The position numbers and the translations under genes are program-made. A DNA stretch of 64,000 nt from Candidatus Omnitrophota bacterium. GTDB taxonomy: Bacteria; Omnitrophota; Gorgyraeia; Gygaellales; Profunditerraquicolaceae. Numbering within the stretch: position 1 is the stretch's first letter; each line of letters begins with the position of its first letter. Shown in pieces: positions 38,003-53,509 of this stretch. Below the pieces are notes generated by a model. It was not told the DNA's origin, ran no database searches, and saw only the letters and a list, made by a program, of their open reading frames with translations. The stretch is taken from positions 14,955 through 78,954 of the forward strand of contig JACQXK010000038.1 of the NCBI GenBank assembly GCA_016208765.1, in the 5' to 3' direction.

Positions 38003-38203
38003 TTATTCGTTTCCGACCTGCGAGTCAACTGTTGTTTTTTCCGGCTCATAAACTTCTCCCTGCCCGAAGGTATCGGCAGTATCGCGGATCTTTGAGGTAA
38101 GGGCGTTCTTGATATATTGCCCCATAATGATAATTGCCGCGATAATTACCGCGAAGACAACGGCAAACTCAATAATGGACTGGGCTTTATTTTTCCTGGA
38201 CAT
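38003..38203 (-). CDS. flp: Flp-family type IVb pilin (flp7), about 66 aa
   Basis: ATG at 38203 preceded by AGGTG. MSRKNKAQSIIEFAVVFAVIIAAIII carries the Flp motif (G/A)QS(I/V)(I/V)E(Y/F) plus a hydrophobic helix. The track ORF is extended N-terminally. Confidence 0.75.
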   Translation of the reverse strand: MSRKNKAQSIIEFAVVFAVIIAAIIIMGQYIKNALTSKIRDTADTFGQGEVYEPEKTTVDSQVGNE

Positions 38204-39029: not shown

Positions 39030-40293
39030 GTGTCAATTTAGTCTCAAACAGGTGGCGCTCCGTATCAAAGAAGCTCCAGTCACTGCCCTTGCAGCCGAAA
39101 ATATTAGTGATCAACTGCCCGGGATTGAACTGCGGCCTGATTGTTTCTTCATCATCTAAATCCGTATGCTCCCTGAAGGCAACGCCAACCCCCGAAGCTG
39201 AAACTTCTCCGTACCTTAATTTCCAAACTCCCAGGTCTTTTGGCTTTTTGTAACGAGTAACCTTGACCACCAGCGGATTATCATCTGTCTGCGCTTTGGT
39301 GCGGTCTTTTAACTCCAGCCCGGCAAAGTCTATACCGGTAGGCATAAACTCTGTCATACCCTTTACAATTGCCTTAGTAGTCTCAATAATAAATCCAAAC
39401 CCAAGCCATTCTAAATACCAGGGAATACTTAAATTTCCTGTTATGAAATTTAAAAGGCAATTCAAGATTTCTGCTATCCAACTATAGAAATTAATCGCAT
39501 AAGTACCGGCGCCTGTAACCTGCACTTCTATCCAATTTTCATAATTCTTATAACTGTCTCCATTACTATAACTATTTCCTCCTCCTGATGACTTATCATT
39601 CCATCCATAACCGGAATTAACCTCAGCCTCGCTATAATCACCCGGCTCTACCTTGCCAAAGCTATCGCGCCAATAACCATTATGTATATCTTGCATAAAA
39701 TTAGAAAACCCGCTTCTGGCATACCTGACTGCGCTTCCTGTTTCACCTTTCATATATTCATCATAATATATGCGCAATTGATCGTTAGTCAACTTTTCAG
39801 GCGTTGTTTTGTACGCGTTGGATAAAAAGCTTTCAAAAGTAGGCTGAGGCTCTTCAACACTAATATTATTAAATGCGTATTGAACTGCGGTTTTCTTGGC
39901 ATTAGTCCAGCCCATATTTGAATCACCCATCGCATGTAACAATTCAATGAACATGTTAATAAAAAACGCTACGGCCAATATAATTACTATTACCCATCCT
40001 AAAACAGGTATGCATGCGGAAATAATTATTGGGATAATTACCTCTGTTGCCCTACCGGACATCATGTCGCTTTTTAAGCCAAGCCCAAGGAGCGTACTGC
40101 TTAACACGCTCGCGCCTGAAAGCGCACCCGCATCAGCGGCATTTGATACCTCAGTCTTAAATATGCCTAACTGCCCCAGATTAAGCGTGATCATTGCCAT
40201 TACCAAAAACACCGCGATGACGGCCACAAGAAAAGGAAACACCTGCCCCTTTTCATAATGGTTTTTATTCTGGGAGAATTCCTTAAATATCAT
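39019..40293 (-). CDS. tadG: TadG-like Tad pilus assembly / minor pilin protein
   Basis: N-terminus ...GQVFPFLVAVIAVFLVMAMITLNLGQLGIFKTEVSNAADAGALSGASVL resembles the TadE/G N-terminal helix plus the NAADAAALAGA motif. Confidence 0.55.
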   Translation of the reverse strand: MIFKEFSQNKNHYEKGQVFPFLVAVIAVFLVMAMITLNLGQLGIFKTEVSNAADAGALSGASVLSSTLLGLGLKSDMMSGRATEVIIPIIISACIPVLGWVIVIILAVAFFINMFIELLHAMGDSNMGWTNAKKTAVQYAFNNISVEEPQPTFESFLSNAYKTTPEKLTNDQLRIYYDEYMKGETGSAVRYARSGFSNFMQDIHNGYWRDSFGKVEPGDYSEAEVNSGYGWNDKSSGGGNSYSNGDSYKNYENWIEVQVTGAGTYAINFYSWIAEILNCLLNFITGNLSIPWYLEWLGFGFIIETTKAIVKGMTEFMPTGIDFAGLELKDRTKAQTDDNPLVVKVTRYKKPKDLGVWKLRYGEVSASGVGVAFREHTDLDDEETIRPQFNPGQLITNIFGCKGSDWSFFDTERHLFETKLTHAY

Positions 40294-40329
40294 TTCAAGA
40301 CCTCTTCTTAGGCACTTAACCTATAGCGC

Positions 40330-42084
40330 TTATTGAGCAATAGGAGTTAAAGCCTGAATACACGCTGCGCGCTCAGCCTGTGTCGGCTTCAGGCAACATT
40401 TTCTATATTCTTCTTTTTGGTTAACAACTTTCTTGCCGGCCTCTTCAATTATATTTGCGCTTCTATACGACAAAAGGTATCCTAACATATAGTCTGCACC
40501 GACGAAAAATGGGTCTCCGGGGGGACAGGGTTGATACAGCCATTGCCAATCGCACCATTGATGGCATTGTGCTTCTGAATTAAATATGGGAGATGCGCCA
40601 AGAGCGGCGAAACACCACCGAAAACCAAACCAAGGATCTTCTATCCAGATTTTGCACCATTGATACCTGCCCCCGCCAACTTCTTTACAATTTTGTTTCG
40701 GATGATTTGCCCTCCACGGGATTGCGCATTGCGCTTCGGTAAAATTCTCATCTTGCCTGCCATCATTACAAAAGTCACAGGCCATGCCGCTGTTTTCTGC
40801 TGCGCAATTCAGGCATTTAGCCCTGTTTCCCGCGGCGAGCGCCCCGCATCTTTGACAGGAAACAATGTAAGCATTACAAGCTGCTGCATTACATCCGGCT
40901 TCAAATCCGGAAAAACAAGTTTTACAAGATACGGGGCTATTTGCACAAGTTTTACAATCATTATTCAACTGAACCTTGTTACAGTTTAAATCACTGCCGC
41001 AGTAAGTTGAAATCGCCCCGTCAAACGCAGCTGAAGATTGGGCGCCGCAAACACATTGGCCAAAGCACCCGCAATTAACGTTAAAAGTATTAACAGTTAA
41101 ACCGCATCCTTCTTTGCCCAAACAAGATTGTTTACAATCTTCACCGGGCTCAAAAGGAGTAATGCTATAAATCCTTTTATTTATGGAATCCTCGCATGCC
41201 TGTCGCAGCCCCTGATCAACAATGTGTGAGCACATACATTGGGCCTGTTCTTCAACCGACCGATAGCTGCTGCAACGGCACTCAAGCTGCTTCTGCGGGT
41301 TATCCTCTTTCACATTACAAAAACATCTTTGCTGATCCGCAAAAGTTGCCTGGCTGCAACAACCGACCATGCCGTCTCTTTTCTGTTTAAGTTTGGCGCC
41401 TTCAGTTTCAAACTTAGAGGCCAGATCCCAAAGCTTGTGTGCTGCCTTTTTCAATTCACTGGCGGTTTTACCCCAATTACCCCACCAACAGATTTCCCAC
41501 GGGTCATCGCATTGGCTTGCCTTATCCCACATACTATTGGCGTTTCGCCAAAAATTACAGGCCATCCCGTCTCCGCAGCGATTTCCCCCGATTTTTCCGC
41601 AATCCTCATTCTGCCCGCAATATTGTTTCACCTGATTAGTCAGGGCATTTACCATCGGCTGAACCCTTGACAGACAGATACAACGGGTATAACAAGGACA
41701 CTCCTTATTAAATTTTCCATCTTTATCAAAACAGGCTTGATCATTATTACATTGCTCAAGGCACTCTGAGGGGCTGAACCCGCCGCCCTCAAATAAACCT
41801 TTACTCCAGGCATCAACCTGTTGCCCGGGTTCTCCCTTAAAGACCCACTCCTCGGTTAATTCCAAAGGCCTAAAAGGCACAACACTAACAAGATCTGTTT
41901 TTTGTTCCTGAACGGCAGGTGTCCCTGCCTGAAGGCGGGTTTTTTGATAGATGACATCGCGCGCGGCATAATTGGCATTAAACCAAACCATGACCCTCGC
42001 TATGCCGATTACCAAAATAAGAATGCCGACAAAAGTAAAAACAAAATCCAGTATTGACTGGGATTTCTTTTTATTCATTGGCAT
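40330..42084 (-). CDS. Cysteine-rich (about 75 Cys) pseudopilin-like protein with a Flp/TadE-type N-terminus; candidate pilus tip adhesin
   Basis: N-terminus MPMNKKKSQSILDFVFTFVGILILVIGIARVMVW (pilin-like KSQSILDF + TM), followed by about 520 aa with dense C-x-x-C / C-x(3-6)-C spacing. Confidence 0.6.
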   Translation of the reverse strand: MPMNKKKSQSILDFVFTFVGILILVIGIARVMVWFNANYAARDVIYQKTRLQAGTPAVQEQKTDLVSVVPFRPLELTEEWVFKGEPGQQVDAWSKGLFEGGGFSPSECLEQCNNDQACFDKDGKFNKECPCYTRCICLSRVQPMVNALTNQVKQYCGQNEDCGKIGGNRCGDGMACNFWRNANSMWDKASQCDDPWEICWWGNWGKTASELKKAAHKLWDLASKFETEGAKLKQKRDGMVGCCSQATFADQQRCFCNVKEDNPQKQLECRCSSYRSVEEQAQCMCSHIVDQGLRQACEDSINKRIYSITPFEPGEDCKQSCLGKEGCGLTVNTFNVNCGCFGQCVCGAQSSAAFDGAISTYCGSDLNCNKVQLNNDCKTCANSPVSCKTCFSGFEAGCNAAACNAYIVSCQRCGALAAGNRAKCLNCAAENSGMACDFCNDGRQDENFTEAQCAIPWRANHPKQNCKEVGGGRYQWCKIWIEDPWFGFRWCFAALGASPIFNSEAQCHQWCDWQWLYQPCPPGDPFFVGADYMLGYLLSYRSANIIEEAGKKVVNQKEEYRKCCLKPTQAERAACIQALTPIAQ

Positions 42085-42110
42085 GAAAACATTATGAACA
42101 TGAAGTTGTT

Positions 42111-42176
42111 GTCATGCCCGCGGACGCGGGCATCCAGACGTTCCAATGGCTGGATTCCCGCATTCGCGGGAATGAC
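42111..42176. repeat. Palindromic intergenic repeat copy D (between the tadE-like gene and the Cys-rich pseudopilin gene)
   Basis: gtcatgcccgcggacgcgggcatccagacgttccaatggctggattcccgcattcgcgggaatgac. Confidence 0.85.
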
Positions 42177-42183
42177 GGTTAAG

Positions 42184-43008
42184 TTATTCCAAAGATGTTT
42201 CCCAAGTCTTCTGCCTGACAATTTTATTATCTACTTTGTCTTTGCTGTATTCCGCGGTAGTGCGGACCAAACGCCCGGTATCCGGGTCTCTCTCTTCTTT
42301 GCTGGATACGCCAAAACTATAAGCTGCAGGCTGAGCATTATATTCATACTCAGGAAGCTTTCCTTGCTCCCATGGTTGCTTATCATCCCACGGCTCTTCA
42401 TCTACAGCCTTATCAAAACGGGTATAAATCTTAGTTTCAATATTACTTGTCAGCTCGGATTTTTTACTGGTTCTAATCCCGTTACCAGCAGGAAGATTTT
42501 CCTCCCGCTTGGCATACGAATCATATTTCTCAACAACGCGTCTTTCTTCCTTCCAAATACTCTCCGGAGCTGTAATCTCGCGTTTGCTGCCGTCAAATCC
42601 TACAACTTCTTTCTTCTTACGGGCAAGGCCGGTATCAGCATTACCGAGCGGCTGGCCGTTGATTTCATAAAACGCGTAGGAAGCATCATTGTCAACACCC
42701 TGCGGCCCCGGCATTCCCTTTTGCCACATCAGGCTTGCTGATGCTCCTATTGTTGAAGGCTGCCCCTGGCCAAAACCACCTAAAAGATTAAAAAAACGTG
42801 CGTCCTTTTTTATTGTATATGAAACCGTGCCGTTTTTTTCGTAGGCTTTTTGCATTGCTATGCGAAAGGCGTCCATTTTAAGCTTCTGCTGCATTTCAAG
42901 CCTCTGGCCGAAACTTAATAAAAGCGAAGCGCCTAACAGCATCATGCTGCTAAGCACCGCTAATTCCACTACTGACTGTGCCTTCGCATTGCGAGAATAT
43001 ATTTTCAT
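42184..43008 (-). CDS. tadE: TadE-like pseudopilin
   Basis: MKIYSRNAKAQSVVELAVLSSMMLLGASLLLSF has the prepilin-like motif plus a hydrophobic helix. Confidence 0.6.
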   Translation of the reverse strand: MKIYSRNAKAQSVVELAVLSSMMLLGASLLLSFGQRLEMQQKLKMDAFRIAMQKAYEKNGTVSYTIKKDARFFNLLGGFGQGQPSTIGASASLMWQKGMPGPQGVDNDASYAFYEINGQPLGNADTGLARKKKEVVGFDGSKREITAPESIWKEERRVVEKYDSYAKREENLPAGNGIRTSKKSELTSNIETKIYTRFDKAVDEEPWDDKQPWEQGKLPEYEYNAQPAAYSFGVSSKEERDPDTGRLVRTTAEYSKDKVDNKIVRQKTWETSLE

Positions 43009-43050
43009 TTTAATTTATATCTCTTGCCGGGTCAACTATTATTTAAATAC

Positions 43051-43551
43051 TTACCCTCCTAATTTGTCATTAACATCGCTGCTTAAATTATTGCGCAGAG
43101 CGTCTACCTCATCCCCAAGATCTTTCTTCGCAGGAAGAGCGTGATTATCTACAGAATATGCTCTGAGCGCTGAACGAAAATCTTCTCCAACAGCAACGCT
43201 CAGGCTATGCTCAGTGTTTCCGACTGAGGAAGAAAAGCTGATATTCCGAGGAGAAGATGTCTCGGTTAATTGCGTATCCTGCTTATTCTGGCTCACAGAT
43301 TTAGTTACCACAGAATCATCGCCTTTATACTGCTGAGTGTCCTGCCCCCACCTGCCCCAGAAACAATAATCCGCGCTTGCTGCGACTTTTGCGCGCAGAG
43401 AGCGGGAAACTATCTTCTGGGTAAAAAGCCAACCCATTGACAATACCGCCAAAACCGCTACCCACATACTAAGGCTTTGGCCGCAACGGCTGTTAAATAA
43501 CTTATTTTTCGTCAGCAAAGGCATCCACCCCCTCTGTCTTACTAAAAGCAT
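43051..43551 (-). CDS. Minor pilin-like protein (weak prepilin motif RCGQSLSMWVAVLAVL); start uncertain (43551 or 43524)
   Basis: ORF track entry. Overlaps the 3' end of flp6 in another frame. Confidence 0.4.
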   Translation of the reverse strand: MLLVRQRGWMPLLTKNKLFNSRCGQSLSMWVAVLAVLSMGWLFTQKIVSRSLRAKVAASADYCFWGRWGQDTQQYKGDDSVVTKSVSQNKQDTQLTETSSPRNISFSSSVGNTEHSLSVAVGEDFRSALRAYSVDNHALPAKKDLGDEVDALRNNLSSDVNDKLGG

Positions 43552-43834
43552 TGGTGGTTTGGCTCTGAGTTACAGTCATCCCAAGAGGAATATTATCGCT
43601 CTCAACACCGGTCCTGGAATCAGAATAGGTAGAGGTTTTTGTAATTGTGGTAGAGGCAGTATGCCCGGGGGAATATTGCATCCCGACTTCATCTACCTCT
43701 CTTTTGATCCTGCCCTCATAACACCTCTTTACATAAAACTGCATGATCATCAGTGCGCTGAGGATCAGGCAGAACAATACCGTATATTCTACAATGCTCT
43801 GCCCGATCTTAGACTTTTTCAATGCGCGAAACAT
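43502..43834 (-). CDS. flp: Flp-family pilin with C-terminal extension (flp6, 110 aa)
   Basis: MFRALKKSKIGQSIVEYTVLFCLILSALMI. RBS TCAGGAGGC. Confidence 0.8.
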   Translation of the reverse strand: MFRALKKSKIGQSIVEYTVLFCLILSALMIMQFYVKRCYEGRIKREVDEVGMQYSPGHTASTTITKTSTYSDSRTGVESDNIPLGMTVTQSQTTNAFSKTEGVDAFADEK

Positions 43835-43860
43835 AACTCAGCCTCCTGATAAAAACGATA

Positions 43861-44298
43861 TTACTTGGCGTATTCGCCCGATAAATCTTCTGCGTTTTCC
43901 GCAGTATATTCAGACCAACGAGTCTTTTCCTGGTTAGCTGAATCAGTTGAAGACTTCGTAGCCATTGTCATTTCTCCGCCTGTCCTCTGATTAACAGAAT
44001 AAGTATCCTTCTCCAAAGTATTGACTGACGCATCTATTCCTTCGGGAAGAAAATCTCCGATCGCACCAGTTGTAGCAGAAGCATCAACTATTTCCTGAGG
44101 GCTATTCATTGTCCTTTTATTAAGGACAGTGGTCCCTCCTGCAGAAAACTGCTCGCCCATTTTATCCGCAGATTCCTTAAGGTTACCCTGGAACCCTCTT
44201 TTTACAAACACCTGCATGATCAAAACTGCAGCCACGACCACACCCAACAAAACTGCATATTCAAGTATTGACTGACCTCTATTACGTTTATTAAACAT
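43861..44298 (-). CDS. flp: Flp-family pilin with C-terminal extension (flp5, about 145 aa)
   Basis: MFNKRNRGQSILEYAVLLGVVVAAVLIM. GGGAGGTG lies upstream of the ATG at 44298. Confidence 0.8.
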   Translation of the reverse strand: MFNKRNRGQSILEYAVLLGVVVAAVLIMQVFVKRGFQGNLKESADKMGEQFSAGGTTVLNKRTMNSPQEIVDASATTGAIGDFLPEGIDASVNTLEKDTYSVNQRTGGEMTMATKSSTDSANQEKTRWSEYTAENAEDLSGEYAK

Positions 44299-44326
44299 CT
44301 TACCAATCACCTCCCTTTAAATAAAG

Positions 44327-44704
44327 TTATTCTGCCGCATCCAGAGTTTCAATGCTGACTGCGCTGGTTGTAGTAGTCTGGCTCTGTTCACGATCTTCCT
44401 TGCCGCCTTTATGCAGAATGCTCTTGTCTACAAAAGTCTTATCATCAACGGTTGTTTTACGCAAATCCTGGGTATACAAAGATTGATCGCTACCTGAAGT
44501 GCTGTAGCTGGACAAATCAAAATCTGAATCGTTCGCCTTATCTTCTTTTCCCCCGGCTTGCTGCAAGAAATTCAATGACTGCGTGCTCTTATCGCGTATG
44601 CCGCCTTTTAAGGCCACAGACAAAAATCCTGCCGCAACTGCCACCACCAATCCTAATGTAATCGCGTATTCTGCTGTTGATTGCGCTCTTTTACTTAAAA
44701 ACAT
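44327..44704 (-). CDS. flp: Flp-family pilin (flp4, 125 aa)
   Basis: MFLSKRAQSTAEYAITLGLVVAVAAGFL. RBS GAGGAGGTGAGC. Confidence 0.8.
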   Translation of the reverse strand: MFLSKRAQSTAEYAITLGLVVAVAAGFLSVALKGGIRDKSTQSLNFLQQAGGKEDKANDSDFDLSSYSTSGSDQSLYTQDLRKTTVDDKTFVDKSILHKGGKEDREQSQTTTTSAVSIETLDAAE

Positions 44705-44727
44705 TTTTGCTCACCTCCTCTTAAATT

Positions 44728-44916
44728 TTATTCTTTAAATATACCTGTTGTTAAATCATTGGTCGTGTTTTGAATGGCATCTCCCGCCTTATCATATGCG
44801 CCCTTTATTTTCGTTTTAACTCCTCCGAACAACGCCACAACAATTACAGTGATCACCGCGCCCAATAACAGAGTGTATTCCAAGATGCTCTGGCCTTTCT
44901 TAAAATCACGTCTCAT
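44728..44916 (-). CDS. flp: Flp-family pilin (flp3, about 62 aa)
   Basis: ATG at 44916 preceded by GAAGGAGGTGA. MRRDFKKGQSILEYTLLLGAVITVIVVALF. Confidence 0.8.
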   Translation of the reverse strand: MRRDFKKGQSILEYTLLLGAVITVIVVALFGGVKTKIKGAYDKAGDAIQNTTNDLTTGIFKE

Positions 44917-44975
44917 TTTCTCACCTCCTTCACAATAAGTGAACACTTGCCTATCCAATAAGGCAAGGTGCCTTT

Positions 44976-45119
44976 TTATTTTAATTCGTCCTGAATCTGT
45001 TTAATTCTTGCGTTCATTGAACGATATACATAACGCTGCGTAATTAACAGTGCCCCGGCCACTACGGTAAACAATAAAACAAACTCAATAATACTTTGTG
45101 CTCTTTTATTCCTAATCAA
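44976..45119 (-). CDS. flp: Flp-family pilin missing from the ORF track (flp2, 47 aa, TTG start)
   Basis: Hand translation: (M)IRNKRAQSIIEFVLLFTVVAGALLITQRYVYRSMNARIKQIQDELK*. GGGGGTG lies 5 nt upstream of the TTG. An upstream in-frame TAG rules out a longer ORF. Confidence 0.6.
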   Translation of the reverse strand: MIRNKRAQSIIEFVLLFTVVAGALLITQRYVYRSMNARIKQIQDELK

Positions 45120-45291
45120 CTTGCACCCCCATAAATGCTGCTATGGTCTGAAAATGATTCTCAAACACATTATTCTTTGTTTTTAGAAGAAAATCAGTGC
45201 TTACTAAGGCAATCACAGCTACTGCTGCCAAAAGCAGATATTCTACGAAAGATTGTCCAATCTGGTTTCTTAAAGACTTTTTAAATTTCAT
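45112..45291 (-). CDS. flp: Flp-family pilin (flp1, about 59 aa), first gene of the pilin array, under promoter/leader L3
   Basis: ATG at 45291 preceded by AAGGAG. MKFKKSLRNQIGQSFVEYLLLAAVAVIALV. The track ORF 45112..45444 reads through the leader. Confidence 0.75.
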   Translation of the reverse strand: MKFKKSLRNQIGQSFVEYLLLAAVAVIALVSTDFLLKTKNNVFENHFQTIAAFMGVQVD

Positions 45292-45302
45292 TAGTATCTC
45301 CT

Positions 45303-45489
45303 TAAATAAAAAACCGACGTCTCTTTTACTTTCAAAGAAACCTCGGCTTTCGGTAACCCGGCTAATGCTCTCGCTCTTGACCTTAAAGCTTAAAGCAATG
45401 AAGACAAATCTTGCGAGCGTCATCCCGTGGCTTTGCGCATCCACCCCTCCAAGAGTGGAATTGCCTTTTCGTTGCCGCCCTTCAACTAC
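45303..45489 (-). promoter_or_regulatory. Leader L3 upstream of the flp array, sharing the 3' half of the L1/L2 leader
   Basis: Sense strand: ...GCGCAAAGCCACGGG...GCCGGGTTACCGAAAGCCGAGG...GACGTCGGTTTTTTATTTAAGGAGatactaATG. aaataaaaaaccg matches L1 exactly over 13 nt. Confidence 0.45.
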
Positions 45490-47379: not shown

Positions 47380-47450
47380 AGATTGGACATTTCCTCTACA
47401 ATATTACCATTTTTATGCGGCGTGTCAAGCTCTTTATAGATTGGACATTT
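47380..47450 (-). promoter_or_regulatory. Promoter of the HTH-protein gene (TTGACA, 16 nt spacer, TAATAT) flanked by two direct AGATTGGACATTT sites
   Basis: Sites at 47380-47392 and 47438-47450. -35 at 47423-47428, -10 at 47401-47406. Confidence 0.5.
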
Positions 47451-47793
47451 ATTCTTGAACAGCTAAGATATCACCAACTTGGGCTTGAGATGCGGAAATA
47501 CTGCCTGCGGAAAATTCTACAACATAGCGCGCCTGCCAGAAAATCGAGCTAAACTTAAACGGCTTAAGCGCAAAAAGCATAGCAACAACTTTGTAATTTT
47601 TGTCTAAAAAGAGCGCATCAATAGAGAAGCGCATAAAAAAGGTGTGAATTGAATTGCAGGGTTTAATTAATAACGCTGTATCTTGCGCCAAACTGCTTCT
47701 ACCCAGCAATCCCCTGGTCCTTGACCAAAAATTATCTGCAATAATCAGCTTCTGGGCAAGCACAATATTCTTAGTTTGATTTAGTAAGCGCAT
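47449..47793 (-). CDS. DUF192 (COG1430) family protein
   Basis: ...LIKPCNSIHTFFMRFSIDALFLDKNYKVVAM... matches the DUF192 core. Confidence 0.55.
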   Translation of the reverse strand: MRLLNQTKNIVLAQKLIIADNFWSRTRGLLGRSSLAQDTALLIKPCNSIHTFFMRFSIDALFLDKNYKVVAMLFALKPFKFSSIFWQARYVVEFSAGSISASQAQVGDILAVQE

Positions 47794-47797: not shown

Positions 47798-47823
47798 ATC
47801 CTTCGCTCGTTCAGGATGACGTC
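47798..47823. repeat. S-element copy 3 (reverse orientation) spanning the tadZ-tadA stop codon
   Basis: gatccttcgctcgttcaggatgacgtc. Confidence 0.6.
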
Positions 47824-49967
47824 TTAAAGACATCATCGGACAAAGCAATGCCTTTAATTTTAAGCTCTTGCACAAATGGAGGGATGTAACCGGTAGCCGT
47901 AAAATTTCCTAAAACCTTGCCCTGATTGTCAACGCCGGTCTGACGAAAATTAAAAACGTCTTTTAAGCCGATATGTACTTCGTCTTTCATGCCGCTCAAC
48001 TCTGATATTTGTATTATTTTACGCGTCCCGTCGCTAAGGCGGGCAGTGTGCACAATAATATGCAATGCAGAAGCAATCATCTCACGAATAGCCCTGATCG
48101 GAAGCTCTACTCCTGACATAAGGATCATAGAATCAAGCCTGACTAAAACATCCTGCGTAGAATTAGCATGCACAGTCGTCATAGAGCCGTCGTGGCCTGT
48201 GTTCATTGCCTGAAGCATGTCCAGGGTTTCTGCGCCGCGGCACTCTCCTATAACAATTCTATCGGGGCGCATACGCAGAGTGTTACGAAAGAGTTCACGG
48301 ATAGAAATCATCCCTTTCCCTTCAATGTTAGGCGGACGCGACTCTAACCTGATCCAATGCTCCTGGCTTAATTTAAGTTCAGCCGCATCTTCAATAGTAA
48401 CAATTCGCTCGGTATTTGGGATAAAAGCTGAGAGGATATTTAAAACCGTAGTCTTACCCGAACCCGTCCCACCGGAAACAATAACATTCTTTCTGGCGAC
48501 AACACACGCCCTGATAAAATCTGCCATTGCCTTACTAACAGAGTTCATGGCGATTAATTCTTCTATCTTAAATTTTTCTTTTCTAAATTTACGGATCGTC
48601 AGCGTCGGCCCGGTAAGCGCCAAAGGCGGGATAATCGCGTTTACGCGCGAGCCGTCGGCAAGGCGGCTATCCACCATCGGCACAGATTCATCAATGCGCC
48701 GGCCGGTAGGAGCAATGATACGCTCAATAATCGTTTTTACCTGATCATTAGAAATAAACTTTTTGCTGGTCAGCTCTATTTTTCCATGACGCTCAATATA
48801 CACTTCATCTTTGTTATTAACCATGATGTCGGTAATGCCGGGGTCTGCCAAAAGGTCTTCTAAAGGGCCCAACCCAAGCGCCTCATCAACTATTTCCTTG
48901 ATAAATTTGTTGCGCACCTCCATAGAAGAAATAAAACTGCCGGCCTCATCGGTGAGTAAGTTAGAAACAATTACTTCTGCTTTCTTCCTAAGCTCATGTT
49001 TTTTCACCGCGTCGCTAAAGATCTTGACGTCTAGCCTTTTAATATTCATTTCATCAATCAGGCGGTTATGGATCCGGCGTTTGATCAAAAGCACCTGATC
49101 GGTTTCTGCTGCCACCTCTTCCTCTTGCCCGGCAACGCTAACACCGAATTCTTTCCAAAATGCCGCAGGCTTCTCCAACTGCTCCTTACCTGCCTCAAGA
49201 GCCCCGATCTCTCTGTGAGAAGTATATAATCTTTCTTCAACGATAAGTTTGTGCGCGAATTTCTTGATTGCCTGAGAGATGCCGGATTTAGGCACATCTA
49301 CCACTACCGGAACGCGGCGGTTAATAGAAAGCCCGACGATTTTACCCTCTGAGGGCAGTGCCGCAATAATCTCGCTGGACAAATTAACCTGCAACTCTTC
49401 AAGGCTGATACTTGAAACAGATTCTGAACGGTTAATCACCACCTTGATCATCGTCAAAGGAAAATGCATTGACTGCAAAGTATCCACAACCCACTTCGTC
49501 TGGTATACAGATAAAATATCCGGAGTTACCAAAAGAAGGATCAAGTTTGACTGATTAATTGAACGCATAAATATTTCATTAAAACTCTTACCGGCATCAA
49601 TTACAACATAATCATAATCGCTGGCATATAATTTAAAAATTGTATCAATGCACTCAGGAGGCAAAATCGCGGCCTGTTGCGGTTTTAAAACCGCAGGAAG
49701 GAAATCAAAACCAAAAGCAGTATGCGTAATAAATGCCTGCTTTTCCGCATCAGCCTTTTGTCTTTTAATGGCTCCGGAGATATCAATCATTGATTTTTGC
49801 GGGCCAAGATTAAGCATCCTTGACAGATCCCCTACACCCTGCAAATCAAAATCCATTAACAAGACGCGTTTTTTCTCGTCGCGGGAAAGGCTCGCGGCAA
49901 GATTAGAGGCGACAAAGGTTTTACCCACTCCACCTTTTGTGCTGAATATTGATATTACCTTAGACAT
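47811..49967 (-). CDS. tadA: Fused TadZ/CpaE-like (MinD/ParA-type) N-terminal domain + TadA/CpaF secretion ATPase
   Basis: N-terminus MSKVISIFSTKGGVGKTFVASNLA (deviant Walker A). C-terminal part VSGGTGSGKTT...DRIVIGECRG...TGHDGSMTTVHANS (VirB11/CpaF Walker A, Walker B, His box). Confidence 0.8.
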   Translation of the reverse strand: MSKVISIFSTKGGVGKTFVASNLAASLSRDEKKRVLLMDFDLQGVGDLSRMLNLGPQKSMIDISGAIKRQKADAEKQAFITHTAFGFDFLPAVLKPQQAAILPPECIDTIFKLYASDYDYVVIDAGKSFNEIFMRSINQSNLILLLVTPDILSVYQTKWVVDTLQSMHFPLTMIKVVINRSESVSSISLEELQVNLSSEIIAALPSEGKIVGLSINRRVPVVVDVPKSGISQAIKKFAHKLIVEERLYTSHREIGALEAGKEQLEKPAAFWKEFGVSVAGQEEEVAAETDQVLLIKRRIHNRLIDEMNIKRLDVKIFSDAVKKHELRKKAEVIVSNLLTDEAGSFISSMEVRNKFIKEIVDEALGLGPLEDLLADPGITDIMVNNKDEVYIERHGKIELTSKKFISNDQVKTIIERIIAPTGRRIDESVPMVDSRLADGSRVNAIIPPLALTGPTLTIRKFRKEKFKIEELIAMNSVSKAMADFIRACVVARKNVIVSGGTGSGKTTVLNILSAFIPNTERIVTIEDAAELKLSQEHWIRLESRPPNIEGKGMISIRELFRNTLRMRPDRIVIGECRGAETLDMLQAMNTGHDGSMTTVHANSTQDVLVRLDSMILMSGVELPIRAIREMIASALHIIVHTARLSDGTRKIIQISELSGMKDEVHIGLKDVFNFRQTGVDNQGKVLGNFTATGYIPPFVQELKIKGIALSDDVFKTSS

Positions 49968-49970: not shown

Positions 49971-51647
49971 TTACTCTAACTGATAGGAAATCGGGATATC
50001 CACCCATAATTCTTTAGTGCCGATTGTCGTAGGAAACGGAGGATACTGAGAAATCTGTTTTGCAACTTTTAAAGCGTTATCGTCAAGTATTTTATAGTTT
50101 GAGGAATTCTTAACCACGGCATCCAGCAAATCACCTTTGTAAGAAATAAGCAGGCTCAGTTGCACTGTCCCTTCAAACCCGGATTGCTTTGCTTGGGCAG
50201 GATAGGCTAAATTCTTCATAATCTTTTGTTTGATTATGCCTGTGTATTTTGCAACAGGGTCTAACGCATACTCGTCTGCAACTTCAACTGTAGAAGCAGC
50301 TTTTTTTGCCTGCTCCATGCTAATATCCATTTGTTTTGCATCTGGGGTTAACGGTTGTTGAGGTTTTTCGGCATCTGCAGGCTGCTCCTCGGTTTTCTTT
50401 TCCAAATAAGGAGTTTCCCTGCTGACAATCGTCGGGGTAATGATAATATATAATTCGGTATCTGCTTTCTGCCCTGTGCCGCCGCCGGTCTTGGTTACTC
50501 TTTTTCTAAAAGCTCCCCCAACCAAAGGAAGGTCCCCGAACCAGGGAACCTTGGTTACCTGTTCCTCGGTTTTCCTGCGCATCAGGCCGCCGATGGATAA
50601 TGTCTGCCCGTTCAACAGGAATAGCTCTGTTGAGGCATTGCGCTTGGTTAATGGGAATGCCTTTGCAGTAATGTTGGTCGCTGTGCCAAGAGTTTCCGCC
50701 TCGCCGTAATCGCTAACCTCCATTTTCACTCCCAACTTAATACGGTCATCGGGCATTACTGTTGGTTTCATCTTAAGCTTAATCCCAAATTCTTTATACT
50801 CAACTTCTGTGCCGGAAGAACCTGCTGTCGCCGCCACAGAAGTAGTGAGCACGGGCTTTTCTCCTCCGACGAGCAATTCAGCTTCTTTGCCGCTTTGACA
50901 GGCAAGCCGCGGACGGGAAAGAATCTTTGCCTTACCCTCCTCTATTAAAGCATCCAGCTTTAAGGTAAATGCGCTGTCTCGCTTAACATTTAAAAGCCTG
51001 AATACATTAGAAAATGCCGTACCACCAGCAGCCAAACCCGGAGAGCCTACTTCAGTAAGACTGACAGAACTCGGCCAGGTAACTCCGAGAGTTTTGCTTG
51101 CATCCTGATCAAGTTCTAAAACCTGCACATCAATTTCTACCACAGATTCTTCTTCGCGGACAGTAGTCAAATTTATTGTTTTTGCCATTAAAGGGCCGAG
51201 CGCCAAAGAAATTTTTTTAATGTCATCGTCGCTTTTTACCCTGCCTAAAAGCATTACCTTGCCTTCCTCATCAGAATCCTTTGTATATACCTCGGGAAGA
51301 TCTAAAGTTTCGAGCATGCTGTCTATTCTACGTTTAATATCCTTCATATCTTCTGTATAGACCCTTATTTCCTGTGACTTTTCTCCGGAAGCATCCCAAT
51401 AAAAAAGAGTAGTTGTGCCTCGGCCTTTGGCAGCAACAATGATAGTATCTTTGCTGACCTCTACCACATCAATTACCTGAGGGTTAGAAATTACTATTCT
51501 CGTCGGGTTAGAAGCAGAAATAGGCCGCGTGTCTCCGACATACATAACAAATTCCTCGCCTGATTTATCCGCAGCGCCCAAAACGCCAAAACAACATAAA
51601 ATTGCAAACCCCGACACAATAAAACTCTGCAAGATTCTTTTTGTCAT
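49971..51647 (-). CDS. cpaC: Tad secretin (RcpA/CpaC family) with C-terminal TonB-C-like domain
   Basis: Secretin core ...TLSIGGLMRRKTEEQVTKVPWFGDLPLVGGAFR...ELYIIITPTIV. C-terminus YPAQAKQSGFEGTVQLSLLISYKGDLLDAVVKNSS...LDDNALKVAKQISQYPPFP matches the TonB_C pattern. Confidence 0.75.
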   Translation of the reverse strand: MTKRILQSFIVSGFAILCCFGVLGAADKSGEEFVMYVGDTRPISASNPTRIVISNPQVIDVVEVSKDTIIVAAKGRGTTTLFYWDASGEKSQEIRVYTEDMKDIKRRIDSMLETLDLPEVYTKDSDEEGKVMLLGRVKSDDDIKKISLALGPLMAKTINLTTVREEESVVEIDVQVLELDQDASKTLGVTWPSSVSLTEVGSPGLAAGGTAFSNVFRLLNVKRDSAFTLKLDALIEEGKAKILSRPRLACQSGKEAELLVGGEKPVLTTSVAATAGSSGTEVEYKEFGIKLKMKPTVMPDDRIKLGVKMEVSDYGEAETLGTATNITAKAFPLTKRNASTELFLLNGQTLSIGGLMRRKTEEQVTKVPWFGDLPLVGGAFRKRVTKTGGGTGQKADTELYIIITPTIVSRETPYLEKKTEEQPADAEKPQQPLTPDAKQMDISMEQAKKAASTVEVADEYALDPVAKYTGIIKQKIMKNLAYPAQAKQSGFEGTVQLSLLISYKGDLLDAVVKNSSNYKILDDNALKVAKQISQYPPFPTTIGTKELWVDIPISYQLE

Positions 51648-51657: not shown

Positions 51658-52611
51658 CTATTTATTGGATAAAGGCATTCTTTCTTTGTTTAAGCCCCGA
51701 TAAATCTCTACGAAACCTTTTTCTTCCCGCGGCTTTTCAGCTTCCACGTTAGAAGGAGTTATATAATTTAACAAGGTATCCCAATCAGCCGGCTTGGTTT
51801 TGTCAATCTGGGTATCTCCCGGAGAGCGCAGCACCAGCCTGATTTTTCCTTGTTCGTTAACAAACGATATTAAGTTCGCCTCTTCCGGAGAAAGCGCCAA
51901 TGTAATTAAAGGTGAAATGTCTTTCTTTTTGTCGCTGCCTTTGGATTTAAAAATCATTCCTGCTTGCGGAGATAAAATTTCATCTCCAACTGCCAGCACT
52001 AAAACGTTTTGAAATAAAGGCACAGTGCTTTTATCTTTTTGCTTTTCATTATCTTTTACGCCCATTGGCCCGCTGTTAGGCAGGGCAATAATAGCAATCA
52101 AATCCACAAAATCACCCGGCTTAATCATTCCTGCCAAAGAAGAGATATTGTCTACCGAAATCGTGATCGCCCTTTTCCCTGCGGGAGTAACTTCGGCTAA
52201 TCCGCTTTCTTTTTGGGTATATTTTTGCTTTCCGCCACCTTCTATCTGCGTGACCTTATTTGCAGTGATCTGTTCCCCTTTTAAAATATCTTCAATAACA
52301 CCCATTCCCGCTACTGCATCCATAGCTGTTGCCGCATTAGGACGGACATATTTTTCAGGGATTACTTGCGCAACAACCATAGAAGGATCTATAACTGTGC
52401 CGCGCGGAAGATCCTTATTTGCCACCAACACTGCCACCATAGAAGATTGTAAACGCTTAAATTCTTCTTTAGCGTTCTCTGTAACTTTTTTCTTTTCAGT
52501 CTCTATTAGATACTTGACCGTAAAGACAGTAACCACTGCCAAGACGATACTGATCAACACCATCGGGATTTTTTTCTGCATATTCTGCATATTATTTAAT
52601 TTCTCCCTCAA
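51658..52611 (-). CDS. cpaB: Flp pilus assembly protein CpaB/RcpC
   Basis: N-terminal TM followed by ...DLPRGTVIDPSMV... (SAF/CpaB). Operon position. Confidence 0.65.
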   Translation of the reverse strand: MREKLNNMQNMQKKIPMVLISIVLAVVTVFTVKYLIETEKKKVTENAKEEFKRLQSSMVAVLVANKDLPRGTVIDPSMVVAQVIPEKYVRPNAATAMDAVAGMGVIEDILKGEQITANKVTQIEGGGKQKYTQKESGLAEVTPAGKRAITISVDNISSLAGMIKPGDFVDLIAIIALPNSGPMGVKDNEKQKDKSTVPLFQNVLVLAVGDEILSPQAGMIFKSKGSDKKKDISPLITLALSPEEANLISFVNEQGKIRLVLRSPGDTQIDKTKPADWDTLLNYITPSNVEAEKPREEKGFVEIYRGLNKERMPLSNK

Positions 52612-53509
52612 TAATTTCTATTTTTGCTCCGCGGTTTAGCTGATCAATCATATTTTCCATTTTCTGCTGCTGCTTTAAAAATACGAGCGCGCGCTTAATA
52701 TCATCCCACATTTCAGACAATGTCTTTTGCTTACCCCCACGCTTACCTTCTAATTTAACAATATAATAACCGTCGGGGCCTTTAAATATGCTGCTGACCT
52801 TGCCGACTTCCAGCGAATCGGAGAAAGCCACTGTATCAAACTGTTCCGACTTTTTACCTCTCTGCAAATATCCAAGGTCGCCTCCGGATGCCGCGCTCTT
52901 TGCCCTTGAGCGATCTTTTGCAATAGTGGCAAAATCTGCTCCCTGCAAAAGCTGGATCATAATATCTTTTGCATCCTGCTCGCTGGGAACCATAATCTCC
53001 CTGATCTGCCGCTCTTCGGGTTCCTTCAGCTTATCTTTATACAAGTTATAATATTCTTCAATTTCTCCTGAAGTAACATCCACATTTTCGGTTTCTTTAC
53101 GCACAAGCTCTAAGACAAGCAGATTCTGTTTTGTTTTTTCAAGCGCCAAAAGAATGTCTTCTTTTTTATCAAGCCCTTGCTTTAATGCCTCCTGATATAA
53201 AAGTATCTGGCGGACCTTGTCATTTTTCAAATACTCAATTTTTTTATCACGGGTGGTGATTTTTAATTCCGGCTTATCTGCCGGGACGGAAGCATTGTAG
53301 GCCTCTATATCCTGATTCAGATCTTCAAGTGTAACCGCTGTGCCGTTAACCTTAGCTACTATCGGCCCCTTTCCCACAAAAGCCGTAGAAACAGAAGCAG
53401 ATTTTTTCGCCGGGCTCTTTTTTTGCTGCAACATCGGGAGCTTATCGCAACCTATTATTACCATGATAGCACAAAATAAAACTAAAAGGATCCTTCTGTT
53501 CATCTTCAT
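52592..53509 (-). CDS. PpiC-type peptidyl-prolyl isomerase lipoprotein (SurA/PrsA-like)
   Basis: Lipobox VIIGC. Parvulin motif ...QGADFATIAKDRSRAKSAASGGDLGYLQRGK...SSIFKGPDGYYIVKLEG. Confidence 0.65.
   Translation of the reverse strand: MKMNRRILLVLFCAIMVIIGCDKLPMLQQKKSPAKKSASVSTAFVGKGPIVAKVNGTAVTLEDLNQDIEAYNASVPADKPELKITTRDKKIEYLKNDKVRQILLYQEALKQGLDKKEDILLALEKTKQNLLVLELVRKETENVDVTSGEIEEYYNLYKDKLKEPEERQIREIMVPSEQDAKDIMIQLLQGADFATIAKDRSRAKSAASGGDLGYLQRGKKSEQFDTVAFSDSLEVGKVSSIFKGPDGYYIVKLEGKRGGKQKTLSEMWDDIKRALVFLKQQQKMENMIDQLNRGAKIEIIEGEIK

What the first reader, a model, noticed from the sequence alone, without database searches (positions are those of the whole stretch)
49971..51647. Tad secretin carrying a C-terminal TonB-C-like domain
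The C-terminal roughly 90 aa (YPAQAKQSGFEGTVQLSLLISYKGDLLDAVVKNSS...LDDNALKVAKQI) matches the TonB C-terminal fold signature. This would make it an outer-membrane secretin with a periplasmic energy-transducer-like or peptidoglycan-contacting module, possibly linking the secretin to the cell wall or to a TonB-box partner.
Basis: partly seen in the sequence, partly recalled or inferred. Interest (0 to 1): 0.55.

Follow-up and report, generated by a model that had tools for sequence, protein, structure and literature searches.

The report
Tad secretin with fused TonB_C domain
The outer-membrane pore protein of this Omnitrophota pilus machine really does end in a TonB-type C-terminal domain on a flexible tether, a fusion conserved across the phylum but not described in the papers searched, and it most likely docks the pore to something in the periplasm rather than transducing energy.

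Summary
**Observation:** confirmed. ORF 49971-51647 (minus strand, 558 aa) has four parts:
- a signal peptide;
- Tad-type secretin domains (Pfam pil_N 49.5 bits, Secretin 135.5 bits);
- a disordered K/E/A/P-rich linker;
- a full-length TonB_C domain (61.1 bits against a 24.6-bit cut-off).

**Fold:** AlphaFold models the C-terminal module at pLDDT 96. Its 26 best PDB fold matches are all TonB, TolA, FusB or HasB C-terminal domains.

**Distribution:** the fusion is not an artefact.
- All 120 listed homologues carry it.
- All 80 related loci from GTDB species representatives carry it. Nearly all are Omnitrophota.
- Gene order around it is fixed.
- TonB_C is about as conserved as the secretin N-domains, while the linker is hypervariable.
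- Some relatives carry two tandem TonB_C domains.
- An Omnitrophota TolC-like channel carries six.

**What it is not:** it has no TonB membrane anchor, and the window holds no ExbB/ExbD, so it is not an energy transducer.

**Likely role (inferred, untested):** the domain sits where *P. aeruginosa* RcpA carries its pilotin-binding tail, and no TadD pilotin is in the window. It is most likely a periplasmic docking or anchoring module whose ligand is unknown.

**Prior work:** the papers searched describe the locus but not this fusion, and databases label the protein only "TonB family protein". It is a new variant of a known kind, of moderate interest.

The parts
49971..51647 (-). Whole gene: Tad-type secretin with a C-terminal TonB_C domain (558 aa plus stop codon at 49971-49973)
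   Evidence: ORF. Identical to public protein P0001, 'TonB family protein [Candidatus Omnitrophica bacterium]'.
51570..51647 (-). N-terminal signal peptide, residues about 1-26 (hydrophobic helix, then ...GAADK)
   Evidence: Sequence. The model has a helix at 2-23 followed by a low-confidence break at 25-28. The cleavage site is inferred, not predicted by a dedicated tool.
51360..51554 (-). T2SS-T3SS_pil_N domain (residues 32-96), the N-terminal periplasmic domain typical of CpaC/RcpA secretins
   Evidence: Pfam PF13629, 49.5 bits. pLDDT 91-96.
51153..51359 (-). Second periplasmic N-domain (residues 97-165, alpha/beta)
   Evidence: The model gives H101-115, E120-137, H140-156, E157-163 at pLDDT above 90. 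Mean column identity 0.69.
50424..50951 (-). Secretin core domain (residues 233-408)
   Evidence: Pfam PF00263, 135.5 bits. Foldseek ranks 1-40 are secretins, including RcpA 8odn at E 2.2e-14.
50259..50423 (-). Disordered K/E/A/P/S-rich linker (residues 409-463)
   Evidence: pLDDT below 50 over 417-461. Across 120 homologues the length is 26-80 aa (median 33) and mean column identity is 0.19.
49974..50258 (-). TonB_C module (residues 464-558): leading helix plus the alpha-beta-beta-alpha-beta TonB C-terminal fold. The protein ends at the end of the domain.
   Evidence: Pfam PF03544 at 479-557, 61.1 bits. TIGR01352. Model pLDDT 96. Fold hits to TonB CTDs. No residues follow the domain in 76 of 80 orthologues.
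51658..52611 (-). RcpC/CpaB gene immediately upstream (317 aa)
   Evidence: TIGR03177 pilus_cpaB, 152 bits against a cut-off of 71. Pfam RcpC plus SAF. Present in 76 of 80 related loci.
52592..53509 (-). Lipoprotein parvulin-type peptidyl-prolyl isomerase (305 aa). Its end overlaps the rcpC start by 20 nt.
   Evidence: Pfam Rotamase_2, Rotamase and Rotamase_3, with a weak SurA_N_2 match. Lipobox-like ...IIGC. Present in 73 of 80 loci.
47811..49967 (-). Fused TadZ/CpaE-like (ParA/MinD) and TadA/CpaF-like ATPase (718 aa). It starts 3 nt after the secretin stop codon.
   Evidence: Pfam T2SSE 211 bits plus CbiA, AAA_31 and ParA. TIGR03819 at 345 bits. Present in 77 of 80 loci.
47449..47793 (-). 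DUF192 protein (114 aa), a conserved operon member
   Evidence: Pfam PF02643, 67 bits. Present in 58 of 80 loci.
36187..37993 (-). Two TadB/TadC-like platform genes (T2SSF domain)
   Evidence: Pfam PF00482, 75 and 58 bits.
38003..45444 (-). Cluster of about nine Flp/TadE/TadG-like pilin genes and unknown genes
   Evidence: N-terminal G/QS-x-x-E-Y/F pilin motifs in the translations. Pfam Tad PF13400 on the 424-aa protein.

Best explanation
The gene encodes the outer-membrane secretin (RcpA/CpaC type) of an Omnitrophota Tad-like pilus or secretion machine.

Shown:
- After the secretin core, a disordered linker rich in Lys, Glu, Ala and Pro tethers a canonical TonB C-terminal domain, which forms the very C-terminus.
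- The linker is 26-80 residues long across the family.
- The protein has no TonB membrane anchor, and no ExbB/ExbD lies nearby. It is therefore not an energy transducer.

Inferred from known secretin structures:
- The C-terminus of a secretin core emerges on the periplasmic face of the barrel.
- An assembled ring would therefore dangle roughly 13-14 TonB_C domains into the periplasm just under the outer membrane.

Inferred function:
- The domains act as a built-in docking or anchoring module.
- They would use the family's established binding mode, which is addition of a partner beta-strand to the edge of the domain's sheet. Less certainly, they contact the cell wall directly.
- In this way they fasten or brace the secretin to a periplasmic ligand.
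- This would take the place of separate accessory factors used by other systems: the TadD pilotin bound by the RcpA tail, the CpaD OmpA-like lipoprotein, TsaP, or the PilQ AMIN domains.

The ligand is unknown.
For: **Identity:** HMM, model and fold evidence agree.

**Selection:**
- TonB_C mean column identity is 0.70. The N-domains score 0.66-0.69, the secretin core 0.79 and the linker 0.19.
- The canonical YP motif (Y482, P483) and the S516-G517, L521-D522 and P552/Y555 positions are at least 90% conserved.

**Ubiquity:**
- All 120 listed homologues have PF13629, PF00263 and PF03544 together.
- All 80 examined GTDB loci have the domain: 79 single, 1 double.
- Three MAGs carry two such loci.

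**Position:**
- The domain replaces the free C-terminal tail. In P. aeruginosa RcpA the last four residues of that tail bind the TadD pilotin and are essential for assembly (PMC10499894).
- No TPR or TadD-like protein was found among the locus ORFs scanned, nor in the double-domain locus L081.

**Precedent for separate anchors:** Caulobacter CpaC needs the OmpA-like lipoprotein CpaD and the bridging protein CpaI (PMC13170226).

**Generic use of the module on outer-membrane channels:**
- 13 of 61 secretin representatives carry two tandem TonB_C domains.
- An Omnitrophota-cluster protein joins six TonB_C domains to a TolC-like OEP domain.
- Tandem copies suggest avidity-type anchoring.

**Not a transducer:** the N-terminus is a signal peptide followed by secretin domains, and no ExbB/ExbD Pfam hit occurs in the window.
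Against: - No ligand was identified and no binding was tested.
- Peptidoglycan binding by TonB_C is not an established property. The established activity is beta-strand addition to a short peptide (PMC12204202).
- E. coli-type TonB-box patterns are absent from every protein in the window.
- The conserved C-terminal strand of RcpC, which looked like a candidate partner, is part of the canonical CpaB model (TIGR03177 aligned to position 260 of 262). It is therefore not specific to TonB_C-bearing systems.
- A pilotin could be encoded elsewhere in the genome.
- The full-length model has pTM 0.50 and gives no information on docking.
Confidence: 0.5

Rival explanations
1. Built-in pilotin or assembly aid only. 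The tethered TonB_C acts transiently during targeting and oligomerisation of the secretin, for example by pairing with a strand of a neighbouring subunit or of the co-encoded lipoprotein PPIase. It would replace TadD and would have no role as a steady-state anchor.
For: - The domain occupies the position of the RcpA pilotin-binding tail.
- No TadD is in the window.
- A lipoprotein PPIase chaperone is conserved two genes upstream in 73 of 80 loci.
- TonB C-terminal domains are known from my own knowledge to form strand-exchanged dimers.
Against: - Nothing in the data separates this from steady-state anchoring.
- Tandem duplication, and six copies on a TolC-like protein, fit avidity anchoring better than a chaperone step.
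Confidence: 0.2
2. Coupling to a motor or to TonB-dependent partners. The outer-membrane-tethered TonB_C captures a TonB-box-like strand of a PMF-driven complex of the ExbBD, PocAB or TolQR type, or of a TonB-dependent transporter. The secretin would thereby be linked to energy input, gating or polar placement. This would be a cis version of the PocAB-TonB3 requirement for type IVa pili.
For: - The domain keeps all canonical TonB_C features and superposes on TonB domains solved in complex with transporters: 9dc4_T, 2gsk_B, 2grx_C and 6i97_D.
- PocAB-TonB3 is required for T4aP assembly and localisation in P. aeruginosa, and a TonB3-PilQ N0 contact has been proposed (PMC5285504).
- A. baumannii tonB2 deletion impairs T4P-dependent transformation (PMC8811193).
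- A natural fusion is classical Rosetta-stone evidence for a functional link.
Against: - No membrane anchor, and no ExbB/ExbD or TonB-dependent receptor gene in the 64-kb window.
- No TonB-box-like motif in the window's proteins.
- The median 33-residue linker is too short to reach the inner membrane. This is my inference from the linker length.
- The rest of the genome could not be examined.
Confidence: 0.12
3. Cargo or pilin receptor. The TonB_C domains recruit substrates to the periplasmic mouth of the secretin. Candidates are the neighbouring giant proteins or the many Flp-like pilins.
For: - The locus lies between giant genes in this window.
- Preprints link this secretion locus to Omnitrophota giant genes (10.1101/2023.11.21.568195; 10.64898/2026.06.07.730766).
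Against: - None of the 80 related loci has an ORF above 1500 aa within 8 kb, and none has a homologue of the three giants, yet all keep TonB_C.
- No TonB-box motif is found in giants or pilins.
- The same module sits on a TolC-like channel, which argues for a generic rather than cargo-specific role.
Confidence: 0.08
4. Artefact or decaying fusion. A mis-assembly, a read-through of two adjacent genes, or a functionless remnant.
For: None beyond the unusual architecture.
Against: - The same continuous ORF is present in hundreds of independent assemblies.
- The domain is conserved as strongly as the secretin N-domains, while the linker drifts freely.
- The fold is predicted at pLDDT 96.
Confidence: 0.01

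Closest known systems
RcpA/CpaC secretins of Tad (tight adherence) pilus systems, such as P. aeruginosa RcpA (PDB 8odn) and C. crescentus CpaC
   Same: - pil_N N-terminal domain and secretin core.
- Structural match to 8odn.
- Operon with CpaB/RcpC, a TadA-type ATPase, TadB/C-like platform proteins and Flp/TadE-type pilins.
   Different: - RcpA ends in a short tail whose last four residues bind the TPR pilotin TadD.
- CpaC relies on the separate CpaD and CpaI proteins.
- Here the C-terminus is extended by a disordered linker and a TonB_C domain, and no TadD is found in the window.
- TadZ and TadA are fused, and a PPIase is part of the operon.
TonB, TolA and HasB C-terminal domains (Pfam PF03544 TonB_C; PDB 6sly, 9ddz, 2gsk, 3qdr)
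   Same: - Sequence family membership above the curated cut-offs.
- YP motif.
- Alpha-beta-beta-alpha-beta fold with a terminal edge strand, TM 0.7-0.8.
- Preceded by a Pro/Lys/Glu-rich spacer reminiscent of TonB domain II.
   Different: - TonB is anchored in the inner membrane by an N-terminal helix that engages ExbB/ExbD, and it reaches up to the outer membrane.
- Here the domain hangs down from an outer-membrane protein, with no anchor helix and no motor genes nearby.
Cell-wall or envelope anchoring modules of other secretins: PilQ AMIN domains, TsaP (LysM) around PilQ, CpaD (OmpA-like) around CpaC
   Same: - Proposed role: fixing a secretin ring in the envelope.
- Like AMIN domains, which occur two or three times per PilQ (my own knowledge), the module can occur in tandem copies. 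Two copies are found on 13 of 61 secretin representatives.
   Different: - No sequence or fold relationship.
- The AMIN domains sit at the N-terminus of PilQ, while TsaP and CpaD are separate proteins.
- Peptidoglycan binding is documented for those modules but not for TonB_C.
PocAB-TonB3 of P. aeruginosa and TonB2 of A. baumannii, TonB paralogues needed for type IV pilus function
   Same: A TonB-family C-terminal domain functionally associated with a type IV filament secretin machine.
   Different: - There the TonB protein is separate, inner-membrane anchored and motor-coupled, and its target is unknown.
- Here the domain is covalently joined to the secretin and has no motor.
Other multi-domain TonB_C proteins: M56/BlaR1-type peptidases with tandem TonB_C, and myxobacterial GltG/GltJ (the latter from my own knowledge)
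   Same: TonB_C used as a modular periplasmic binding domain outside classical TonB, often in tandem.
   Different: Different carrier proteins. None of those found here is a secretin.

Membership tests
Secretin superfamily, Tad (RcpA/CpaC) type | Secretin core domain (PF00263) above the curated threshold | tested here: met
   135.5 bits against 27.5, residues 233-408.
Secretin superfamily, Tad (RcpA/CpaC) type | N-terminal T2SS-T3SS_pil_N domain characteristic of CpaC/RcpA | tested here: met
   PF13629, 49.5 bits against 23.
Secretin superfamily, Tad (RcpA/CpaC) type | Fold similarity to solved secretins, including RcpA | tested here: met
   Foldseek ranks 1-40 are secretins. RcpA 8odn scores E 2.2e-14 and TM (target) 0.53.
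Secretin superfamily, Tad (RcpA/CpaC) type | Encoded with CpaB/RcpC, a TadA/CpaF ATPase, TadB/C and Flp-type pilins | tested here: met
   The gene order is conserved across the 80 related loci.
Secretin superfamily, Tad (RcpA/CpaC) type | Free C-terminal tail that binds a TadD TPR pilotin (P. aeruginosa paradigm) | tested here: not met
   The C-terminus is a TonB_C domain, with no residues after it in 76 of 80 orthologues. No TPR protein is in the window locus. This feature is not universal among Tad systems.
Secretin superfamily, Tad (RcpA/CpaC) type | Forms a 13-14-mer SDS-resistant outer-membrane channel | not testable with these tools
   Requires biochemistry or cryo-EM.
TonB_C domain family (PF03544 / TIGR01352) | HMM match above the curated threshold over the full domain | tested here: met
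   61.1 bits against 24.6, profile positions 2-79 of 79. 51.5 bits against 27.1.
TonB_C domain family (PF03544 / TIGR01352) | Alpha-beta-beta-alpha-beta fold superposable on solved TonB C-terminal domains | tested here: met
   pLDDT 96.2. TM 0.70-0.81 and rmsd 1.5-2.0 A to 6sly, 9dc4_T and 9ddz.
TonB_C domain family (PF03544 / TIGR01352) | Conserved YP motif at the start of the domain | tested here: met
   Y482 and P483 are at least 90% conserved in 120 homologues.
TonB_C domain family (PF03544 / TIGR01352) | Binds a partner strand (TonB box) by beta-strand addition | not testable with these tools
   No multimer prediction was available. The motif search was negative but has low power.
TonB energy-transducer proteins (TonB/ExbB/ExbD system) | N-terminal inner-membrane anchor helix that engages ExbB/ExbD | tested here: not met
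   The N-terminus is a signal peptide followed by secretin domains.
TonB energy-transducer proteins (TonB/ExbB/ExbD system) | Genetic association with exbB/exbD | tested here: not met
   No ExbB/ExbD family hit in any scanned ORF of the 64-kb window. The rest of the genome was not examined.
TonB energy-transducer proteins (TonB/ExbB/ExbD system) | Extended Pro-rich periplasmic spacer before the C-terminal domain | tested here: inconclusive
   The linker is rich in K, E, A and P and is disordered, but short (median 33 aa) and without clear (EP)n/(KP)n repeats.
Peptidoglycan-binding secretin accessories (AMIN, LysM/TsaP, OmpA-like/CpaD) | Recognised peptidoglycan-binding domain | tested here: not met
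   No AMIN or OmpA hit on the secretin, and only a sub-threshold NCBIfam LysM-protein hit at residues 87-152 (16.3 bits against 134). The resemblance is functional and hypothetical only.

The most novel reading that the evidence does not exclude
The fusion is a natural Rosetta stone showing that TonB-type C-terminal domains and type IV filament secretins are direct physical partners in general. In Omnitrophota the outer-membrane-tethered TonB_C would capture a box-like strand from a periplasmic or motor-linked component, or from exported giant proteins. It would thereby couple gating, placement or cargo delivery to the secretin. This would also explain the long-unexplained requirement for PocAB-TonB3 in Pseudomonas pilus assembly.
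Probability: 0.12. Interest if true: 0.75.

Novelty: new variant of a known kind. Interest (0 to 1): 0.5.

Why it matters
**Accessory factors differ between secretins.** Secretins need them to be targeted, assembled and fixed in the envelope, and these factors vary widely between systems. Tad systems alone use TadD in Pseudomonas and CpaD/CpaI in Caulobacter. Omnitrophota are a phylum of ultra-small, probably predatory or parasitic bacteria whose Tad-like loci are thought to drive host attachment and perhaps export of giant proteins. They appear to have solved the problem by attaching a TonB_C domain to the secretin itself, and also to a TolC-like channel. That would be a new, genetically compact way of docking outer-membrane channels.

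**It bears on an open question.** The fusion is independent, comparative evidence for a functional link between TonB-type domains and pilus secretins. The only precedent found is the unexplained PocAB-TonB3 phenotype.

**It affects annotation.** These genes are labelled 'TonB family protein' in NCBI records. At least one survey apparently counted such genes as 'TonB-domain content' without recognising a secretin. As a result, the secretin of the locus can be missed and TonB-dependent uptake can be over-called.

Tried and rejected
1. **TonB-box motif search.** I searched all 25 window proteins, including the three giants and the pilins, with strict and loose E. coli-type patterns. There were 0 hits against 0.01-0.17 expected. 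This is uninformative because TonB boxes are short and diverse.
2. **RcpC C-terminal motif as a dedicated partner.** The conserved (F)VEIYRG strand follows a variable linker. I rejected it as a specific partner because the canonical CpaB model TIGR03177 aligns through it, to profile position 260 of 262. Systems without TonB_C therefore have it too.
3. **Search for a TadD or TPR pilotin.** None was found by Pfam in any locus ORF or in the precomputed annotations of L081. A copy elsewhere in the genome cannot be excluded.
4. **Giant genes as conserved neighbours.** There are no homologues and no ORF above 1500 aa within 8 kb in the 80 related loci. The giant-gene adjacency is therefore not what maintains TonB_C.
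5. **Taxonomic names for the divergent and double-domain variants.** Labels were mostly absent or generic ('bacterium'), and one was a probably mis-binned archaeal MAG label. I could not establish whether the fusion occurs outside Omnitrophota.
6. **Genomic context of the 6xTonB_C-OEP protein.** The contig was too short to be informative.
7. **Literature searches.** I looked for a described secretin-TonB_C fusion. None was found. The library is incomplete, so absence is not proof.
8. **Inter-domain docking.** It could not be assessed from the full-length model (pTM 0.50, no PAE or coordinates returned).
Full report
**1.
- A 558-codon ORF occupies exactly 49971-51647 on the minus strand and contains the quoted peptide.
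- Pfam gives three matches above threshold. T2SS-T3SS_pil_N covers residues 32-96 at 49.5 bits. Secretin covers 233-408 at 135.5 bits. TonB_C covers 479-557 at 61.1 bits against a cut-off of 24.6, spanning profile positions 2-79 of 79, E 1.4e-16.
- NCBIfam's tonB_Cterm model agrees, at 51.5 bits against 27.1.
- The exact protein exists in NCBI as 'TonB family protein [Candidatus Omnitrophica bacterium]'. JGI labels close relatives 'pilus assembly protein CpaC'.

**2. Anatomy and structure.**
- I built an AlphaFold2 model from 120 homologues (mean pLDDT 80.6). It shows a signal-peptide helix, two confident periplasmic N-domains, the secretin sheet region, a disordered stretch at 417-461 (pLDDT below 50), and a very confident C-terminal module (pLDDT 95-98 over 470-558).
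- The C-terminal module has helix 464-479, helix 484-489, strands 493-502 and 507-514, helix 519-531 and strand 546-555.
- Foldseek against the PDB returns secretins at ranks 1-40, with RcpA 8odn among them. TonB C-terminal domains follow immediately.
- Modelled alone, residues 462-558 reach pLDDT 96.2 and pTM 0.84.
- The first 26 structural neighbours of that model are all TonB, TolA, FusB or HasB C-terminal domains. H. pylori 6sly gives TM 0.79 and rmsd 2.0 A. N. meningitidis 9ddz gives TM 0.81 and rmsd 1.5 A. Several hits were solved bound to transporter TonB boxes: 9dc4_T, 2gsk_B, 2grx_C and 6i97_D.
- A sequence profile of the module hits nothing in the PDB except TonB, TonB2 and HasB.

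**3. It is a conserved feature, not an accident.**
- All 120 listed homologues (48-84% identical) have the same three Pfam domains.
- A scan of one genome per GTDB species found 275 loci encoding a relative. In all 80 that were kept, the match runs to residue 553-558. My own HMMs find TonB_C in all 80: 79 single, 1 double. The protein ends exactly at the domain's end in 76 of them.
- Almost all records are Omnitrophota MAGs. A few carry other MAG labels (Planctomycetales, Patescibacteria, Deltaproteobacteria) that I could not verify.
- Three MAGs have two such loci.
- Column conservation is 0.70 for TonB_C, against 0.66-0.69 for the N-domains and 0.79 for the secretin core.
- The linker scores 0.19 and varies from 26 to 80 residues (median 33). 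Its composition is K 13%, E 12.5%, A 12%, P 11% and S 10%.
- The TonB hallmark YP motif and the S516-G517, L521-D522 and P552/Y555 positions are at least 90% conserved.
- This is the signature of a functional domain on a flexible tether.

**4. Context.**
- Every gene in the window is on the minus strand.
- The order tm81, PPIase, RcpC/CpaB, secretin-TonB_C, TadZ-TadA fusion, DUF192, 604-aa unknown, pilins, TadB/TadC recurs across the related loci. RcpC is present in 76 of 80, the ATPase fusion in 77 and the PPIase in 73.
- The secretin gene is tightly packed. Its start lies 10 nt after the rcpC stop, and the ATPase gene starts 3 nt after its own stop.
- No TPR or TadD-like protein, no ExbB/ExbD and no TonB-dependent receptor was detected among the window's ORFs.
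- The window's Tad locus is flanked by three giant ORFs. The 80 related loci have no ORF above 1500 aa within 8 kb and no homologue of these giants. TonB_C is therefore not maintained by giant-gene adjacency.

**5. Variants.**
- I ran an exhaustive profile search of 1.84 billion cluster representatives with the C-terminal module. It found 4113 proteins at E below 1e-10.
- Of the best 149, 61 are secretin-TonB_C proteins or fragments of them, and 13 of these carry two tandem TonB_C domains.
- One double-domain secretin (P0131, 797 aa) lies in the same PPIase, RcpC, secretin, TadZ-TadA, DUF192, pilin context.
- Most other top hits are secretin-less proteins with two to six tandem TonB_C domains.
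- Some of these are M56/BlaR1-type peptidases. One, from a cluster whose named member is an Omnitrophica MAG protein, joins six TonB_C domains to a TolC-like OEP channel domain.
- In this lineage TonB_C has therefore been attached to two unrelated kinds of outer-membrane channel.

**6. What is known.**
- Three studies of Omnitrophota discuss the Tad or 'type II secretion-like' locus.
- Seymour et al. 2023 analyse RcpA, TadB and TadC and never mention TonB (PMC10066038).
- West-Roberts et al. 2023 describe the conserved gspD/E/F, rcpC and Rotamase_2 locus next to giant genes, with no occurrence of 'TonB' or 'secretin' (10.1101/2023.11.21.568195).
- A 2026 preprint lists two 'TonB C-terminal domain' genes flanking giants without mentioning a secretin. 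These are probably this protein (10.64898/2026.06.07.730766).
- Further searches found no description of a secretin-TonB_C fusion. The library is incomplete.
- In P. aeruginosa, the last four residues of RcpA bind the TadD pilotin and are essential for secretin assembly (PMC10499894).
- In Caulobacter, CpaC instead uses the OmpA-like lipoprotein CpaD as a probable peptidoglycan anchor and CpaI as a bridge to CpaB (PMC13170226).
- TonB and TolA C-terminal domains bind their targets by beta-strand addition (PMC12204202).
- The TonB paralogue TonB3, with PocAB, is needed for type IVa pilus assembly in P. aeruginosa by an unknown mechanism, and a TonB3-PilQ N0 contact has been suggested (PMC5285504).
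- A related phenotype exists in A. baumannii (PMC8811193).

**7. Most likely mechanism (inference).**
- In solved secretins the C-terminal end of the core lies on the periplasmic face of the barrel near the inner leaflet. That is where the S-domain and the pilotin-binding tail sit (established knowledge).
- An assembled ring would thus carry about 13-14 TonB_C domains, or twice that in the double variants, on tethers of a few nanometres.
- They could reach the secretin's own N-domain ring, nearby periplasmic proteins or the cell wall. They could not reach the inner membrane.
- The protein lacks TonB's anchor helix and any adjacent motor genes, so it cannot transduce energy itself.
- I therefore read the module as a built-in docking or anchoring device. 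It would replace the separate accessory proteins of other systems.
- Tandem duplication and reuse on a TolC-like channel favour a generic envelope ligand and avidity binding.
- I put about 0.5 on this reading overall. Within it, I cannot decide between a protein strand and peptidoglycan as the ligand.

**8. Rivals.**
- A purely assembly-stage 'self-pilotin' role: 0.2.
- Coupling to a Poc/Exb/Tol-type motor or to TonB-dependent partners: 0.12. The canonical fold and the TonB3 precedent support it. The absence of motor, receptor or box motifs in the window argues against it.
- A cargo or pilin receptor: 0.08. The lack of conserved giant neighbours weakens it.
- An artefact: about 0.01, refuted by conservation.

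**9. Verdict.**
- It is a member of the secretin family and of the TonB_C domain family. It is not a TonB energy transducer, because the membrane anchor and the motor association were tested and not met.
- The architecture is a new variant of a known kind: a Tad secretin with an accessory domain not described in the papers I could search. It is conserved across many Omnitrophota species.
- Interest is moderate. Function is inferred only, and TonB_C is a promiscuous module.
- Two things raise the interest. The fusion points to a different solution to secretin docking, and it offers comparative support for a TonB-secretin link that has been an open puzzle since the tonB3 twitching phenotype.

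Noticed in passing
window 26915-27056, 35121-35276 and 45349-45475 (all minus strand): Three c-di-GMP-I riboswitch aptamers score above Rfam gathering (46.6, 35.6 and 40.2 bits against 35). Two lie directly upstream of giant ORFs (the one over 8943 aa ending at 26829, and the 2504-aa ORF starting at 35060). One lies at the head of the Flp-like pilin cluster. This suggests c-di-GMP control of giant-protein and pilin expression.
   Followed up: no
window 47811-49967 (-): TadZ/CpaE-like ParA/MinD ATPase and TadA/CpaF-like secretion ATPase are fused into one 718-aa protein. The fusion is conserved in 77 of 80 related loci.
   Followed up: partly
window 52592-53509 (-): A lipoprotein parvulin-type peptidyl-prolyl isomerase has a weak, sub-threshold SurA_N_2-like N-terminal match, and its end overlaps the rcpC start by 20 nt. 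It is conserved in 73 of 80 loci and is an unusual member of a Tad operon. West-Roberts et al. had already noted it.
   Followed up: partly
window 1-26829, 27546-35060 and 54216-63905 (all minus strand): Three giant ORFs flank the locus.
- The first is over 8943 aa and runs off the window. It has a Peptidase_C39-like match about 215-301 aa into the translated stretch that begins at 26829.
- The second is 2504 aa and has no Pfam hit.
- The third is 3229 aa, with HEAT repeats near residues 495-567 and two LysM domains near residue 1000.
   Followed up: partly
P0277 (locus L082 3320-6871); also P0121, P0122, P0124, P0152 and P0158: Some secretin-less proteins carry 2-6 or more tandem TonB_C domains. 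One, from a cluster whose named member is an Omnitrophica MAG protein, joins six TonB_C domains to a TolC-like OEP outer-membrane channel domain. Others are M56/BlaR1-type peptidases.
   Followed up: partly
P0126, P0128, P0129, P0131 (locus L081 10001-12394), P0133, P0135, P0137 and P0145: Secretin orthologues of 640-800 aa carry two tandem TonB_C domains. P0131 sits in the same gene context as the window's secretin. P0160 and P0174 (about 1050-1090 aa) have longer inserts between or after the domains.
   Followed up: partly
window 35460-35509 and 42127-42176: A 50-nt direct repeat (94% identical) lies in two intergenic regions of the locus. On the minus strand it translates into similar pseudo-peptides (...AGIQPLERLDAR...RGHDN). 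It is probably a dispersed intergenic repeat element.
   Followed up: no
window 45556-47370 (-) and 53522-53767 (-): Two conserved operon members have no family assignment. One is a 604-aa protein, present in 54 of 80 loci, with a conserved N-terminal segment that to my eye resembles a DNA-binding helix-turn-helix. The other is an 81-aa predicted membrane protein, present in 45 of 80 loci.
   Followed up: no
public records of this protein family (P0001 and relatives): NCBI names these secretins 'TonB family protein', while JGI names some 'pilus assembly protein CpaC'. A 2026 survey lists 'TonB C-terminal domain' genes beside giant genes without mentioning a secretin. The label can hide the secretin and inflate apparent TonB content.
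   Followed up: yes
window 54007-54082 (-): A tRNA-Glu (CUC) gene sits between the Tad operon and the upstream giant gene.
   Followed up: no
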